Shown: piece after piece, positions 48,001 through 57,000 of the stretch | How positions within the stretch are numbered: the stretch's first letter is position 1 | Layout of the letters: each line of letters begins with the position of its first letter | Assembly: GCF_031769215.1 (NCBI RefSeq) | Contig: NW_026782106.1 | Coordinates: forward strand, 496,001-560,000 | Length of the DNA: 64,000 nt | From: Ylistrum balloti | Lineage: Eukaryota | Reading direction: 5' to 3' | Position numbers: made by a program

Positions 48001-51000
48001 CTAGATTAAACAAGAGCACTACACATGCATACATGTTACACATGTAATTATACAGAGAGCAAAGATATTGTTAAAATGTATTAACCAATGACAATGTAAT
48101 AAGGTCTGCCAGATTTCAGAAATACTTCAGGAGCTTTATATTAGCTATACCAATGACTTCAACAAAACTTTATTAGGGTTAAATCCATCTGTATAACTTG
48201 CAAAAAGGAAGTAATGCTCGCAAAAAGGAAGTAACGCTCTTTATCTTTTTTTCTGAAATTGTGCAAAATTTCAGAACCAATAAAAAAAAACAACATGTAG
48301 TCACTTTATCTTTTGGTGAAATAACTGAACATTGTAACAATCCCAATTTGAAGAATAAAAATTCCGGAAACTGACCTCATTAACAAATACTTGAACAATC
48401 GTTTCAGCTCTAATGTATTTGTAAATTGAAAATCGAATAATGCAAAATATAATAATCCTTACCTCAGTTTTTTTCTGTCCTTTTCCTTTGACTTCTGTAG
48501 CAATGCTATCTTTACTACAGTCAGTTGAAGCAGGAGTCTGAATTGAATTATTTGACGGGAAATAAAAATTTACACAGGCAAATCTGTTTTGGAACAACTC
48601 AAAAGTACATTCAAATATACACCTTCAGAAGGGCTTTAAATGGAAACAAGAATTCAGTTTTATATGTAAGTCAACATTTCAAATCTTCGTGATTATTTAC
48701 TGATAAAATAGAGAAAATTCAGTTTTAAGTTTCTATGCTTGTCATCTTCAAACATTATTCCATTTCTGAGTTAATTTTTTTCATCTTTATTTCTTTGACT
48801 TACAGAAAAAGGAGCTTGAACACTGTGAGCCACATTTGGTATCTTGGACTTTTTAAGTTTTACAGGATCTTTCTGTTTATCAGCACAATTTTTCTGTTTT
48901 GTAACTGATTTCTTTGATTTTTTCGGCTTCACTTCTTTTGATTCATCACCTTCCTGTGAAGTCAGATATTATCATACAACAAAATTCTCCAGCAAAATTA
49001 CTTCTTACATAGTCAAGATCATACAATGTTTGTTTCAGACCATCAGTGTTATTATATTGTGTATGAATTTTATAGTCCGCTGTGGCCTTTATAAATTGAG
49101 CAAATTGAGCAAATATAGTGATATTTAGAAATTTGGAAGTTATTCCTGCATTTTCCTCAGTTTTGGGAAAATACTGTATAGCCAAATATTTTAACATGAA
49201 TGATATTTTCACTATTTTGCAGTACATTCACAAGGCAATGAAAATTAAATCTGTGAAATAATGAGACATATGTATAAGACATTCTGTTACATCAACACAC
49301 TAAAACACACATTCAAAAGTATATTTGTATACATAGTGTATATAACTGATCCATGAACTTGGTCAGCTGTGCTGTGATGACCATGTCACAGGTAACATTG
49401 GTGGTGCTATGGCAGTGTTATCGGGAGCACACAAAGGGAATTACAATGGCGCATTGAAGTGTCAGGAAGGTTTATTTCATTGTTGTTTCACTTCCTATTA
49501 ACAGCAAGATTAGTTAAAGGACGTACCAGATCTGGCGAGAGGGGAAAAGGCTGTGACTGCGATACTGAGAGCTAGTAACAAAGATGGTGAGATATGTTAA
49601 GCAATCAGCCACCATGGTCATATGTCAAGAGAAATTCATTTTGAAAAAAAACTGATAGTGGTAGGCAAGGCTGGGAGTACAATGGGTGGCAGTACAACAA
49701 GGTTATAATGAACCTGAAAAATGTGTTTACCCTTGTAAAAGCATGGAATTAAAATGACTTTCTAACCTGTGTTTCTCCAGATTTCTTGGGCTTCTTCTTT
49801 TCTGATTTTACATCCTTGTCATTCTTCAAACTTTCATCTGATTCCTTGAGAATGTACAAAAAACATTATCAATCAACTTTCATTTATGTCATGACCACTG
49901 ACTGAACAGCTCACCATCTGATGACAGCAGGCTAAAAATGTGACATGTCCTTCCGTTGATATATGTAATATATACATAAGGTAAATGACTATGAATGATA
50001 AATGGAATTGGATTACTTAAGAAACTTAAACACTGAATATATACATGTACATTGCAAAGCTAATACATTAATCTTCTAGTGGATCTTTGTTCTTTTCAGA
50101 TTATTTAGATATGACTTCCTGCAATTTTGCCTTTTCAATTTCACCTTTAATATTGTAATATGCAAAAGTGAAGATAAAAAATCATTATGACTGAAAGACA
50201 AAATTAGATCACATCACAAAATCAGGTTTGAGGGGAGTGGTTCTACTCTCAATGTTCAGTGCATATGGACAAAATAAATGTAGAAATGAACTTGAGATGT
50301 ATATACAAAACAAAGAGTATGTGTAAATGCAATGAAATCTTCAGCAATGATGGAGAAATGTAGTTGGCGCTGATTATCTTTCAATACCTATAGGGGCTGG
50401 GACAACAATTTAGTAAATGATAAAACTGTATAATGTATACCATTTCTGCTGATGTCTTTTTAGGAGCTTGAAATCCAACTTTCATTTTCTTCTGTTTTAA
50501 GTTGATATTTAGACTCTTTGCTTTTTCATAGTTATTCATTGATGGTGAACCTTCTTTTTCCTCAAGGTGATGAATGGACTCCTACATAAGTCATAACAGG
50601 AAAATCAGTATTGAACATTTCACATCTTAAGTACCTGGTACAATTTATTTATTTAATATCATCATGCATTACAGAAAATTCACAATGTACATATCAAAAT
50701 TCCTATTGATACACATTTTGGAATACTTTCTCATTTATTTAACAAACGCTGTACATGAAATAAGATAGCATTACCCAAACCATTCCCCAGTTTTATTGTT
50801 ATTAACAAAAAAGTGATTTAATAACATTAAAATAGATAGGAATACCAACTTCATTATCAAGACTTTGCTGATTGCATACTGCGAGTTCTGTCGATTCTTG
50901 GCAATCCTGTGAATTATTTAGTTTGGAAATACTAGAGTTCTCTGGAGTCTCCATTCTTCTTCCTTTACAAAAAAATGTATTTATATACCATAATTACATT

Positions 51001-54000: not shown

Positions 54001-57000
54001 CTAAAAAAGGAAAATTCGTCTATGGCAACTACAATAGATATTATGGGTACAGAAATCCTGACACTGCAGATGATTACAGGCTAATGTCTTTCAGGAAAGA
54101 GTGGTTTGAGGGAAAGGATGCAATTGACATTGGATGCAATGTTGGTCATGTGACATTGGCTATAGCAAAAGAAATGCATCCTCGAAAGATTATAGGGATT
54201 GACATTGATTCTAGTCTGATTGCTGCTGCTAGGAAAAATGTGAGGCATTACATCTCAAAAGAGAATATGGGTTGTGGAAGTTTTCCAATCTCCAATACTC
54301 TGAATTATGGTCCAATTGCTGCTCCACCTGTGAATGAAGTCTACAGCTTTCCAAAATTTCCACACAATGTTGTCTTTGTACAGGTAAATATCAATGTTAA
54401 ATATAAACGTTAAAAAAGCACTAATTAAACTTGTACATGTTACAATTCTTTTTATATATTGGTATTTTCAGAAATATTAAAACCAAAGAATGTACAATGT
54501 TTTAAGAAATAGCTGTTGAAGAGCTAGAGATTGATTTTCTTCTAGGAGAAATAGATCCAATCTTTACTCTTATGAAACAGCAAAGCAGGAACTGTAACTC
54601 TGATAGTTTTCAGACTAGATCAAGAAATTGAAAATGTAACTTGCATGCTCACATAATTGGAAAAGTAGTATCATACCGTTAGTTTGAAACAGACATGTGC
54701 TCAATATATTGTCAGTTCATATATAGCACAAAATCAATGTCCGCATGTTTACAGGGTAACTATGTACTGGAGAGAGAAGAATTACTGGAACTGCAGAAAG
54801 AAGATTATGATGTCATCTTAGCTCTAAGTCTTACCAAATGGGTTCACCTTAATTTTGGTGATGATGGACTAAAGCGAATGTTTAAGAGAATTTATCGGCA
54901 GCTGCGGCCAGGGGGACGGCTGATCTTAGAGCCTCAGCCATGGTCTTCCTACAAGAAGAAGAAGAAGCTCACAGTAAATATTTTCTATTACAATGGCCAC
55001 CATTCAGAACTAATAACATAATGTGTGATTTATCAAGTCAAACCTTGGAAATAAATTTCAATGTGTATTGCCAATTATTTGAATCAGGGAAATTGAATAT
55101 ATGAAAGTTTGGAACACAAGATTTCCAAAACTGCTCACTTTAATAACTGAAACAATTTTGATCATGTCGTTGAAAAAGATCAAATAGGAGTAAATGTTTC
55201 AATTGCTTTGTTCTTTGCTCTATAGAATAATGAAAACAATTTTATGTATTTTCAGCCGGAGATTTTTGAGAACTTCAAAAGAATTTCTCTAAAGCCAGAG
55301 CAGTTCTCAGACTACCTGTTGTCTAAAGAGGTTGGATTCTCCACTTGTGAGGTTGTAGACACTCCCTTCAACAAGTCCAAAGGTATGTATAGTTTTATAA
55401 TATATTATGTACATGTTTGTTTCATCGAAATTCCCTGATAGGGTGTGAGAAGGTATGGGGATACCTGTAGATATTCCCTGGGTACTGGACAAAATTACAA
55501 TGGAAATTCCACAAGTATGTTGATGATTGAAAACATTGAAATGTCTTGTTGATATTACATTTGATGCAAAGTTTACCACATACCATAAGGGTAATACAAA
55601 TTTTCTTTTTTCTTCTCCTTTCTTTGTAGAAATTTTCAAAAATTTGACAGTTGTAAAATTCTTTAGGTGTTATACAAGTATATGAACTTGTGCTCAAATA
55701 CAGTATCAGGATACATTAATGTTGTAATTTTCAAAATATTCAGTCAAGTTTCCAAGGAATATGGTAGCAGTTTTTCCTTGGTATTTTGAAACTAGAGGTG
55801 TCTTCTACTCCACCTTCAATGTGTATATTGTATAGGAGAGTTCTTTAAAACTGATGCTAGTGATGTTGGATTTTAACAATTTGGAGGTGTGTGATAAGGG
55901 TGTGTATGTGATAATATTTTTTGGGCAAAGGTACATACACAGTAAAAGTTCTGTAAAACAAATTTTTGATCATGTTATGGCACTGCTTGGCACCTTTAGA
56001 TCAGAAGTTCTTGTTCTGCAGAGGAGAAAAGAATTGTAATTTATTAATCTCTTTTCCAGGTTTCCGCAGGACTATCCAGCTCTTCACAAAAGCAGAAACT
56101 GCAGCTAACAGCCCAAAACAAGATGAACCTGCAACTAATAATGAAACTATTAGCAGCCAGAAACAGGACTCAAAAACTGATGGGACAACCACTTGCAGCC
56201 CAAAACAGGATAACTCGGCAACTAATAATGAGACAACAACTTGCAGCCCAAAACAGGATAACTCTGCAATCGATACAGCAGTGAAGGCTTCAACAGAATC
56301 AAATCCAGATCAACCTTCTGAAGCCATGGAAACATTTGTTACACTAAATACGACAGAGGCAGAAGAGTGCAGACAGTAGAATGAATGGGTTTTAGAACTG
56401 AAGAAACTTTTGGTTATTTTGAATTGTAACATTATCAAGATGTAAATACAATACACTGATATAAATTGTGTTTGTTGGAATCTAACTGCCATCTTTAATG
56501 CTATATAAAATGGCTTACGTTAATGATCACATTGATAAGAACCAGATCTTAGGGAGGAGTAACAGGCAGAAGTGTTGCATTATTATCAGTACCACAATGT
56601 TTAATCATTTCAGCTGCAATATTAATATTCTTTTCTAACACATTAACTAGTGCAATTTCTGAAATATATTCTTAATACATGGTTAAATGGTTTTTGTCTC
56701 GCCTAGAACGCAAAGTCAAAGACTGGTGTTATTTTTCCTGCAGTGGCAACCATAGCAACATCTACATTTCTCTGTCAAGTTTTGTATGTAAACTTGTTCA
56801 ATTTTAACCAAATAGGTAGATTTACAAAATATTTTCCAGATGATTTCAGGTGAACTCAGAAAATTAAGTTTGCTTAGAAACTGTACTTGAGTGTTGTATT
56901 TAGATAAGTTTCTCTATTAAATACAATGTTTATTCCAATGGAATTTTGAATACACTTTCATTGTAGTAGAGACATCTAAAGCAACCAAATAGATTCTATG

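What the first reader, a model, noticed from the sequence alone, without database searches (positions are those of the whole stretch)
50880..54383. ZCWPW1-MEPCE head-to-head pair apparently shared between a mollusc and human
Seen: divergent ZCWPW1-like and MEPCE genes with ATGs 524 bp apart (52479 and 53004). From memory, human ZCWPW1 and MEPCE are also adjacent and divergently transcribed at 7q22.1. Inference: a bidirectional pair kept since the protostome-deuterostome ancestor, coupling a germline-biased histone reader to a housekeeping 7SK/P-TEFb regulator. It also supports true orthology of the CW-PWWP gene. The next gene here is CFAP74, so the conserved block looks limited to this pair.
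Basis: partly seen in the sequence, partly recalled or inferred. Interest (0 to 1): 0.65.

Follow-up and report, generated by a model that had tools for sequence, protein, structure and literature searches.

The report
MEPCE and CW-PWWP genes head-to-head
Two unrelated genes, an RNA-capping enzyme (MEPCE) and a histone-mark reader of the ZCWPW family, sit back to back around one promoter-like island here as they do in human, which is most likely one more case of the known ancient conserved gene pairs.

Summary
The core observation holds. A MEPCE orthologue lies on the + strand (ATG 53004, four exons to 56379). A CW-zinc-finger/PWWP gene lies on the - strand, and no other gene was detected between them. 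MEPCE identity is firm: its exon 2 scores 113 bits to the 7SK capping enzyme against 29.7 bits to its paralogue.

One detail is wrong. The ATG at 52479 is followed at once by GTAAGT and cannot be spliced in frame to the next coding exon. The first usable ATG is 50954, so the start codons are about 2.05 kb apart, not 524 bp.

A single ~1 kb CpG-rich island (52250-53300, o/e 1.14; gene bodies 0.20 and 0.31) lies between the genes. That fits a shared promoter region and a non-coding first exon.

[quoted passage not shown] Inheritance from a common ancestor is therefore the likeliest reading.

Still open:
- ZCWPW1 versus ZCWPW2 is a tie (29.9 vs 28.5 bits).
- No intermediate lineage could be examined.
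- The phylum was not verified.
- CFAP74 next door was not confirmed.

Hundreds of such conserved pairs are already known, so interest is modest.

The parts
53004..54383 (+). MEPCE-like exon 1 (460 codons): a long non-catalytic N-terminal part, then the start of the methyltransferase domain
   Evidence: First ATG of the open frame, GT donor after 54383. Residues 334-420 align to the 7SK snRNA methylphosphate capping enzyme chains 5una/6dcb, E 9e-32, 48 of 87 positions identical by my count of the printed alignment. Nine SAM-methyltransferase Pfam families match residues ~353-422, all below their curated cut-offs.
54755..54973 (+). MEPCE-like exon 2 (73 codons, phase 0 to 0)
   Evidence: AG/GT borders. 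Pfam Bin3 PF06859, 95 bits against a cut-off of 27, E 5e-27. In the structure database, 113.1 bits to the 7SK capping enzyme against 29.7 bits to RNA 5'-monophosphate methyltransferase 6l8u.
55256..55382 (+). MEPCE-like exon 3 (phase 0 to 1)
   Evidence: AG/GT borders and matching phases. Its ORF matches Bin3 profile positions 56-102 at 26.1 bits, just under the cut-off of 27.
56060..56379 (+). MEPCE-like exon 4 with stop codon: a few conserved residues, then a repetitive tail
   Evidence: Acceptor and phase fit exon 3; ends in TAG. No Pfam match.
52250..53300 (.). CpG-rich island spanning the interval between the two genes and the first ~300 bp of MEPCE exon 1; the putative shared promoter region
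   Evidence: 47 CpG in 1051 bp, o/e 1.14, against 0.20 for the CW-PWWP gene body and 0.31 for the MEPCE body. All 12 best 1-kb windows between 25 and 64 kb overlap it.
52368..52375 (+). TTTCCCGC motif (E2F-type consensus by recall), copy 1
   Evidence: One of only 2 matches in 64 kb, with 0.32 expected; 4 of 100 shuffles reach 2.
52912..52919 (+). TTTCCCGC motif, copy 2, 85 bp upstream of the MEPCE ATG
52477..52479 (-).
   Evidence: Sequence. It is the only - strand donor scoring at least 6 of 7 between 52250 and 53000. It is not in frame with the next exon (my reading).
51106..52207 (.). About 1.1 kb element bounded by inverted repeats, inside the putative first intron
   Evidence: 36-nt arms 78% complementary, plus inner 21-nt arms at 90%. 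Single copy in the window.
50880..50954 (-). First coding exon of the CW-PWWP gene model (25 codons from an ATG, phase 0 out)
   Evidence: Pyrimidine-rich acceptor 8 bp upstream of the ATG, GTATGC donor. No family match. Assigned to the gene only by strand, position and phase.
44833..45015 (-). Lys/Glu-rich exon just upstream of the CW exon (phase 1 to 1)
   Evidence: Splice sites and phase fit the CW exon. No significant Pfam match.
44408..44515 (-). CW zinc-finger exon with the KWR motif (phase 1 to 1)
   Evidence: Pfam zf-CW 40.7-41.6 bits against a cut-off of 27.5. Best solved relatives are ZCWPW1 (2e61, 29.9 bits) and ZCWPW2 (4o62, 28.5 bits), then MORC3/4 and KDM1B.
42989..43103 (-). Exon with the end of the CW domain, a short linker and the first strand of the PWWP domain, ending inside the PWWP motif (phase 1 to 2)
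   Evidence: Weak matches to the PWWP domains of MSH6 and NSD2 (E 0.5-1) that end at the exon border.
42251..42326 (-). Exon that completes the PWWP motif (phase 2 to 0)
   Evidence: The split Trp codon is completed across the intron. Too short for a database match.
41279..41398 (-). Exon with the middle of the PWWP domain (phase 0 to 0)
   Evidence: Pfam PWWP profile positions 38-66 of 93, E 0.077, below the cut-off. Splice sites.
39918..39998 (-). Next phase-compatible exon downstream of the PWWP exons
   Evidence: No family match.
31810..32910 (-). Long Lys/Glu/Ser-rich open frame ending in a stop; possible last exon of the same gene
   Evidence: 367-residue open frame on the same strand. 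No Pfam match. Its assignment to this gene is my inference.

Best explanation
The window carries an orthologue of MEPCE (the 7SK snRNA methylphosphate capping enzyme, Bin3 family). Next to it, on the other strand and pointing away, lies a gene for a CW zinc finger followed by a PWWP domain, the ZCWPW family. Between them is one CpG-rich, presumably unmethylated island of about 1 kb, which most likely holds the transcription starts of both genes. On this reading the CW-PWWP gene starts with a short non-coding exon ending at the GTAAGT donor at 52476, is interrupted by a 1.5-kb intron carrying a transposon-like insertion, and begins translation at 50954. Human MEPCE and ZCWPW1 are reported to share their TSS region, and chance adjacency of two given genes is rare. 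The arrangement is therefore most likely inherited from the bilaterian ancestor, as one more of the several hundred known conserved head-to-head pairs. It may be held together by the shared promoter, or simply by the lack of room for a harmless breakpoint.

Shown: gene identities, orientation, exon borders, the island.

Inferred: transcription starts, promoter sharing, common descent.
For: - MEPCE identity: Bin3 domain at 95 bits. Exon 1 gives E 9e-32 and exon 2 gives E 2.5e-32 to the 7SK capping enzyme chains. On exon 2 the paralogue-type enzyme 6l8u reaches only 29.7 bits against 113.1.
- CW-PWWP identity: zf-CW at 41.6 bits. The best solved relatives are ZCWPW1 and ZCWPW2. The PWWP motif is split over two exons with fitting phases, and weak matches collinear with the PWWP profile lie on the flanking exons.
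- Gene model: six consecutive exons, 45015 to 39918, have AG/GT borders and matching phases.
- Island: o/e 1.14 against 0.20 and 0.31 in the gene bodies, the only such region between 25 and 64 kb. There is no second island at the first coding exon (o/e 0.45).
[quoted passage not shown] Regulatory variants labelled ZCWPW1/MEPCE (passage).
- Cattle: one locus lists PPP1R35, MEPCE, ZCWPW1 in a row (passage).
- Background (abstract and passages): nearly 600 conserved pairs across metazoans; the mollusc Lottia keeps 448-492; 54.8% are 5'-5' in human.
- My inference from these numbers: a pair found adjacent in both lineages is far more likely inherited than coincidental.
Against: - No lineage between this organism and mammals was examined.
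- The organism's phylum was not verified (one search gives no such evidence).
- The CW exon does not separate ZCWPW1 from ZCWPW2 (29.9 vs 28.5 bits; only generic CW clusters).
- In an oyster the CW-PWWP gene discussed is named Zcwpw2.
- In a teleost (seabream) the gene on one side of mepce is defb2, not zcwpw1.
- No transcript data: the first exon, the TSS positions and promoter sharing are inferred. The single strong donor in the island is only weakly surprising (0.39 such donors per kb on that strand).
- The N-terminal exons between 50954 and 45015 have no family match. Their membership in the CW-PWWP gene rests on strand and phase alone.
- The PWWP call rests on per-exon evidence below database thresholds, because the joined protein was not searched.
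Confidence: 0.65

Rival explanations
1. The linkage is ancestral but passive. The two genes stayed neighbours only because the interval between them is tiny and both genomes rearrange slowly. They do not share regulation, and the island serves MEPCE alone.
For: MEPCE-type genes are broadly needed, while ZCWPW genes are germline-biased: mouse testis and oyster male gonad for Zcwpw2. That argues against simple co-expression. Slow-evolving genomes keep most ancient pairs. The TSS of the CW-PWWP gene is not mapped.
Against: No second CpG island or other promoter-like feature lies near the first coding exon. A consensus donor sits inside the island on the - strand. Head-to-head orientation is enriched among conserved pairs, which the authors read as a sign of constraint.
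Confidence: 0.2
2. The resemblance to human is not orthologous linkage. Either the gene here is the ZCWPW2 orthologue or a pre-duplication or other CW-PWWP gene, or the adjacency arose independently in the two lineages.
For: The CW exon ties between ZCWPW1 and ZCWPW2. A 2026 preprint reports both paralogues in nearly all of 28 cnidarians, so an invertebrate bilaterian may carry both. The oyster gene in print is named Zcwpw2. No intermediate lineage was checked.
Against: Chance adjacency of two given genes among some 20,000 is of the order of 1 in 10,000 (my estimate). That is far below the share of truly conserved pairs. The CW domain here lies behind several upstream coding exons. This resembles ZCWPW1, whose CW+PWWP lie at residues 256-339, but those upstream exons are ab initio predictions only.
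Confidence: 0.12
3. The gene model is wrong. The exons between 45 and 51 kb belong to another, unrecognised gene, so the CW-PWWP gene and MEPCE are not immediate neighbours.
For: None of 10 ORFs tested there has a significant family match. The chain between 50880 and 45015 is only phase-compatible and has no transcript support.
Against: All candidate exons lie on the same strand, share the Lys/Glu-rich composition of the exon next to the CW exon, and allow a phase-consistent chain. No ORF on the other strand stands out.
Confidence: 0.05

Closest known systems
Human ZCWPW1-MEPCE locus (7q22.1)
   Same: The same two gene families sit next to each other with 5' ends facing. In human one CpG is described as lying in the TSS region of both genes, and regulatory variants are labelled ZCWPW1/MEPCE. 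Here one CpG-rich island lies between the genes.
   Different: Divergent orientation in human is my recall; the passages imply it but do not state it. Here the start codons are about 2 kb apart, with an intron and a transposon-like insert on the CW-PWWP side. The outer neighbours differ: cattle and human lists give PPP1R35 after MEPCE, and nothing of the kind was recognised here. ZCWPW1 versus ZCWPW2 is not settled for this gene.
Conserved ancestral microsyntenic pairs (CAMPs) of the co-regulation class, e.g. HSPE1-HSPD1 (Irimia et al. 2012, PMC3514665; abstract and passages seen)
   Same: Unrelated genes, 5'-5' orientation, short interval, kept between a slow-evolving invertebrate and human.
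   Different: Neither gene is named in that paper's main text (0 mentions of MEPCE or ZCWPW1). The pair list is in supplements I could not open. Presence in several lineages, which defines a CAMP, was not tested here. Co-expression is doubtful, since one partner is germline-biased.
MEPCE / Drosophila Bin3 family against BCDIN3D
   Same: SAM-methyltransferase core plus the Bin3 C-terminal domain, and a long N-terminal extension. The match to the 7SK capping enzyme is much stronger than to the RNA 5'-monophosphate methyltransferase.
   Different: The N-terminal 333 residues and the repetitive C-terminal tail have no detectable relatives. Activity on 7SK is inferred. That 6l8u is BCDIN3D is my recall of the molecule name.
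ZCWPW1 / ZCWPW2 dual histone-mark readers
   Same: A CW finger with the KWR motif, followed after a short linker by a PWWP domain.
   Different: Paralogue assignment is open. No SCP1-like or MBD-like region (described for some vertebrate ZCWPW1) was detected by Pfam in any exon tested.

Membership tests
MEPCE (7SK methylphosphate capping enzyme, Bin3 family) | SAM-dependent methyltransferase core | tested here: met
   Exon 1 residues 334-420 align to chains 5una/6dcb at E 9e-32, 48 of 87 identical by my count. Nine methyltransferase Pfam families match the same stretch, each below its own cut-off.
MEPCE (7SK methylphosphate capping enzyme, Bin3 family) | Bin3 C-terminal domain (PF06859) | tested here: met
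   Exon 2: 95 bits against a cut-off of 27. The exon 3 ORF continues the profile (positions 56-102) at 26.1 bits.
MEPCE (7SK methylphosphate capping enzyme, Bin3 family) | Closer to MEPCE than to the paralogue BCDIN3D | tested here: met
   Exon 2: 113.1 bits to the 7SK capping enzyme against 29.7 bits to RNA 5'-monophosphate methyltransferase 6l8u. One exon only.
MEPCE (7SK methylphosphate capping enzyme, Bin3 family) | Methylates the gamma-phosphate of 7SK (and U6) snRNA | not testable with these tools
No 7SK gene or any other Rfam family was found in the window.
ZCWPW1 | CW-type zinc finger with the KWR motif | tested here: met
   zf-CW at 40.7-41.6 bits against a cut-off of 27.5. KWR is present in the exon translation. 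KWR is named as a conserved pattern.
ZCWPW1 | PWWP domain directly after the CW finger | tested here: inconclusive
   The PWWP motif reads across the exon 42989 / exon 42326 junction with fitting phases. Per-exon matches are weak (E 0.5 to MSH6/NSD2 PWWP; Pfam PWWP E 0.077). The joined protein was not searched.
ZCWPW1 | Groups with ZCWPW1 and not ZCWPW2 in a gene tree | tested here: inconclusive
   Only the CW exon could be compared: 29.9 bits (ZCWPW1) against 28.5 bits (ZCWPW2). The Atlas gave generic CW clusters. No tree was possible, because no sequences of relatives were available.
ZCWPW1 | CW domain internal, behind a long N-terminal region (human CW+PWWP at residues 256-339) | tested here: inconclusive
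   Several phase-compatible Lys/Glu-rich exons lie upstream of the CW exon, but they have no transcript support or family match.
ZCWPW1 | Meiotic or germline expression and binding of H3K4me3 plus H3K36me3 | not testable with these tools
   No expression data for this genome. An oyster gene called Zcwpw2 is high in male gonad.
Conserved ancestral microsyntenic pair with bidirectional promoter | Adjacent and 5'-5' in this genome | tested here: met
   No domain-bearing ORF lies between the genes.
Conserved ancestral microsyntenic pair with bidirectional promoter | The same adjacency in human | tested here: met
   Literature passages only: a shared TSS region, variants labelled ZCWPW1/MEPCE, and a cattle gene list. 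No human sequence was used.
Conserved ancestral microsyntenic pair with bidirectional promoter | Linkage present in several independent lineages on both sides of the bilaterian split | not testable with these tools
One teleost passage shows defb2 on one side of mepce.
Conserved ancestral microsyntenic pair with bidirectional promoter | Transcription starts less than 1 kb apart | tested here: inconclusive
   One 1-kb CpG island with a consensus - strand donor inside it. No transcript data. The start codons are 2050 bp apart.

The most novel reading that the evidence does not exclude
The MEPCE / CW-PWWP island is a bidirectional promoter more than 550 million years old. If so, linkage to MEPCE is a positional marker that identifies true ZCWPW1 orthologues in invertebrates. 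That would date the ZCWPW1/ZCWPW2 split, and with it the dual-mark reader arm of the PRDM9 system, to before the bilaterian ancestor, independently of the short and poorly resolving CW and PWWP sequences. It would also mean a germline reader gene has been driven from a housekeeping promoter throughout animal evolution.
Probability: 0.4. Interest if true: 0.5.

Novelty: new member of a known kind. Interest (0 to 1): 0.33.

Why it matters
Published sources disagree on when ZCWPW1 and ZCWPW2 separated. [quoted passage not shown] A conserved neighbour would give an independent character for orthology, and so for tracing the readers of PRDM9's histone marks outside vertebrates.

Beyond that, the pair would be one more entry in a catalogue of several hundred ancient head-to-head pairs. 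It is unusual mainly in coupling a broadly needed RNA-capping enzyme to a germline-biased reader.

I found no paper that describes this pair's conservation:
- 0 of the 38 rows listed (43 papers matched) hold MEPCE, ZCWPW1 and synten* together.
- By their titles, the 19 papers listed of the 23 that name both genes are human or cattle genetics.

The pair may still sit in supplementary lists that I could not open.

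Tried and rejected
splicing the ATG at 52479 to the next exon gives no in-frame junction.
- **PWWP exons searched one by one** against solved structures and Pfam: only sub-threshold matches.
- **Atlas look-alikes** of the CW exon, to separate ZCWPW1 from ZCWPW2: generic CW clusters only, best score 0.88.
- **Atlas look-alikes** of MEPCE exon 1, hoping for a hint of the phylum: chordate-dominated methyltransferase clusters, nothing on taxonomy.
- **Pfam on 10 candidate N-terminal and C-terminal exons** of the CW-PWWP gene: nothing significant.
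- **CFAP74 downstream of MEPCE:** 20 ORFs between 56.4 and 64 kb gave no related Pfam match. A crude splice-site screen found only 4 exon-like ORFs there.
- **Rfam on the whole window:** no match.
- **Other copies of the inverted-repeat element:** none in the window.
- **Literature** on conservation of the pair:
  - MEPCE + ZCWPW1 + bidirectional: 3 papers, where 'bidirectional' refers to statistics.
  - Promoter and head-to-head terms: nothing relevant.
  - Synteny terms: nothing relevant.
  - ZCWPW1 with oyster or mollus*: one paper, which cites ZCWPW1 only in its reference list.
- **Left out by instruction:** joining the exons into one protein for a search or a fold.
- **Not run:** structure prediction, fold search and complex prediction, since no open question here depended on them.
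- **Unchecked because closed or absent:** the large protein searches, metagenome and viral contig collections, any eukaryotic genome collection, and all supplementary files, including the pair list of PMC3514665 and the orthologue tables of the ZCWPW1 papers.

Full report
**What is in the sequence**

The window has no N. On the + strand an open frame begins after a stop at 52971-52973. Its first ATG is at 53004, and it runs 460 codons to a GT donor after 54383. Three further exons follow: 54755-54973, 55256-55382 and 56060-56379. All have AG/GT borders and fitting phases (0/0, 0/1, 1/stop).

I never joined the exons into a spliced protein for a search or a fold. This limits what can be said about domains that are split by introns.

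**The + strand gene is a MEPCE orthologue**

- Exon 1, residues 334-420, aligns to the 7SK snRNA methylphosphate capping enzyme chains 5una and 6dcb at E 9e-32. By my count of the printed alignment, 48 of 87 positions are identical.
- Exon 2 carries the Bin3 domain (PF06859, 95 bits against a cut-off of 27).
- Exon 2 scores 113.1 bits to the same enzyme. It scores only 29.7 bits to the RNA 5'-monophosphate methyltransferase 6l8u, which I recall to be the paralogue BCDIN3D.
- The exon 3 frame continues the Bin3 profile at 26.1 bits, just below the cut-off.
- The first 333 residues and the repetitive tail of exon 4 match nothing.

**The - strand gene is a CW-PWWP gene**

- The exon 44515-44408 is a CW zinc finger (41.6 bits against a cut-off of 27.5).
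- Of 14 solved sequences matched at E up to 1, the best are ZCWPW1 (2e61/2rr4, 29.9 bits) and ZCWPW2 (4o62 and two others, 28.4-28.5 bits). MORC3, MORC4 and KDM1B follow.
- The next exon (43103-42989) finishes the CW domain. It ends two bases into the first Trp codon of a PWWP motif.
- The exon after that (42326-42251) supplies the third base and the rest of the motif. Exon 41398-41279 then continues the domain.
- Taken singly these exons reach only sub-threshold matches: E 0.5-1 to the PWWP domains of MSH6 and NSD2, and Pfam PWWP positions 38-66 at E 0.077. Two exons gave nothing relevant.
- The matches are collinear with the domain, and six consecutive exons from 45015 to 39918 have matching phases. 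I take the CW-PWWP architecture as established.

Upstream of the CW exon lie several Lys/Glu-rich open frames on the same strand, which allow a phase-consistent chain back to a short exon at 50954-50880. None of the 10 frames tested has a significant family match. That part of the model is ab initio only.

**The start codon**

However:

- It is preceded in frame by a stop.
- It is followed at once by GTAAGT.
- If spliced to the acceptor of the next exon, it runs into a stop after 15 codons.
- No phase-0 acceptor exists in the frame of that exon (my reading).

The first ATG of the coding frame is at 50954. The start codons are therefore 2050 bp apart, not 524 bp.

The ATG/GTAAGT site is more plausibly the end of a non-coding first exon. 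It is the only - strand donor scoring at least 6 of 7 between 52250 and 53000. Such donors occur 0.39 times per kb on that strand, so this alone is weak evidence.

**The interval between the genes**

CpG content gives the best clue.

| Region | CpG count | Length (bp) | CpG o/e |
|---|---|---|---|
| Island 52250-53300 | 47 | 1051 | 1.14 |
| CW-PWWP gene body | 114 | 20,440 | 0.20 |
| MEPCE gene body | 31 | 3,079 | 0.31 |
| Around the first coding exon (50700-51100) | 4 | 401 | 0.45 |

All twelve best 1-kb windows between 25 and 64 kb overlap this island.

It is established that methylated CpGs decay and that invertebrate gene bodies are often methylated. From that I infer one unmethylated promoter island flanked by two methylated gene bodies. 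That fits a shared or back-to-back promoter, but no transcript data exist to show it.

The only two copies of TTTCCCGC in the 64 kb lie inside this island, at 52368 and 52912. This motif is an E2F-type consensus by my recall. The expectation is 0.32 copies, and 4 of 100 shuffles reach two. A CpG-containing motif is of course favoured in a CpG-rich stretch.

Between the putative first exon and the first coding exon sits a 1.1-kb element bounded by inverted repeats (51106-52207). It is single copy in the window.

**The human side**

I used no human sequence; the evidence comes from passages I read.

- Two 'potentially regulatory variants' are labelled ZCWPW1/MEPCE (PMC6119822).
- A cattle locus lists NYAP1, TSC22D4, SPACDR, PPP1R35, MEPCE, ZCWPW1 (PMC12837429).

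That the human genes are divergently transcribed is my recall; the passages imply it but do not state it.

**Is it ancestral?**

I could not look at any other animal genome.

The argument is therefore indirect. Irimia et al. 2012 (PMC3514665; abstract and passages) report:

- nearly 600 conserved pairs across metazoans;
- 448-492 of them kept in the mollusc Lottia;
- 54.8% in 5'-5' orientation in human;
- an excess of intervals under 1 kb.

Chance adjacency of two given genes among some 20,000 is of the order of 1 in 10,000 (my estimate). A pair seen adjacent in both lineages is therefore far more likely inherited than coincidental, provided orthology is right.

Points on the other side:

- The seabream passage shows defb2 on one side of mepce.
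- The organism's phylum is unverified (one search gave chordate-dominated clusters).
- The paralogue is unresolved.

**ZCWPW1 or ZCWPW2?**

- The CW exon ties, and the Atlas gave only generic CW clusters.
- Mahgoub et al. [quoted passage not shown]
- Cavassim et al. infer both in the vertebrate ancestor (passage).
- A 2026 preprint reports both in nearly all of 28 cnidarians and mentions sequences 'from porifera to human' (passages).
- Wells et al. 2020 found only vertebrate orthologues by strict criteria and do not exclude more distant ones (passage).
- The one paper that holds ZCWPW1 together with oyster or mollus* discusses a gene called Zcwpw2, high in male gonad. It names ZCWPW1 only in its reference list.

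If both paralogues predate bilaterians, linkage to MEPCE would be a useful positional marker for the ZCWPW1 line. That is the most novel reading the evidence allows.

**Surroundings**

- On the far side of the CW-PWWP gene I recognised only three C-type lectin exons at 2-24 kb.
- Rfam found nothing in the window.
- No locus was fetched, and nothing in the window looked human.

**Verdict**

This is a real head-to-head MEPCE / CW-PWWP pair around one promoter-like island. It very probably shares ancestry with the human ZCWPW1-MEPCE arrangement.

In kind it is a new, or perhaps already catalogued, member of the known class of ancient conserved bidirectional pairs. I found no paper describing it, but the supplementary pair lists could not be seen.

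Noticed in passing
window 51106-52207: About 1.1 kb element bounded by imperfect inverted repeats (36-nt arms 78% complementary, inner 21-nt arms 90%). It lies inside the putative first intron of the CW-PWWP gene. It looks like a non-autonomous DNA transposon and is single copy in the window.
   Followed up: partly
window 2122-2469, 13501-13962, 23241-23762 (- strand): Three C-type lectin domain exons (Pfam Lectin_C, E 1e-11 to 4e-13): apparently a small tandem family. The latter two lie next to long Thr-rich repeat frames (11482-12153, 21188-21928), suggesting mucin-like lectins.
   Followed up: partly
window 11500-12300 and 21200-22000: The Thr-rich repeats have CpG o/e of 1.4-2.05, the highest in the window. 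This is presumably a codon effect of the repeat and not a promoter island.
   Followed up: no
window 12293-13221 and 22372-22729 (- strand), 14820-15362 (+ strand): Long open frames made of a repeated unit of about 13 residues lie beside the lectin exons. They are tandem repeats of unknown meaning.
   Followed up: no
window 56060-56379 (+ strand): The last exon of the MEPCE-like gene ends in a repetitive Ser/Pro/Lys/Gln/Asp/Thr/Asn-rich tail of about 90 residues with no Pfam match.
   Followed up: no
window 52368-52375 and 52912-52919: The only two TTTCCCGC sites in 64 kb both lie in the inter-gene island, in the same orientation. They are possible E2F-type sites; the motif name is recalled.
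   Followed up: partly
window 56400-64000: No recognisable gene downstream of MEPCE. Of 20 ORFs tested, none gave a significant Pfam family, and a crude splice screen found only 4 exon-like ORFs.
   Followed up: partly
window 59375-59548 and 59638-59817 (- strand): Two nearby open frames look alike by eye. They are possibly remnants of a repeated element.
   Followed up: no
literature, not the window: In gilthead seabream, defb2 is flanked by spag7 and mepce (PMC11541337, passage). It is a starting point for asking what became of the MEPCE neighbourhood in teleosts, many of which lack ZCWPW1.
   Followed up: no
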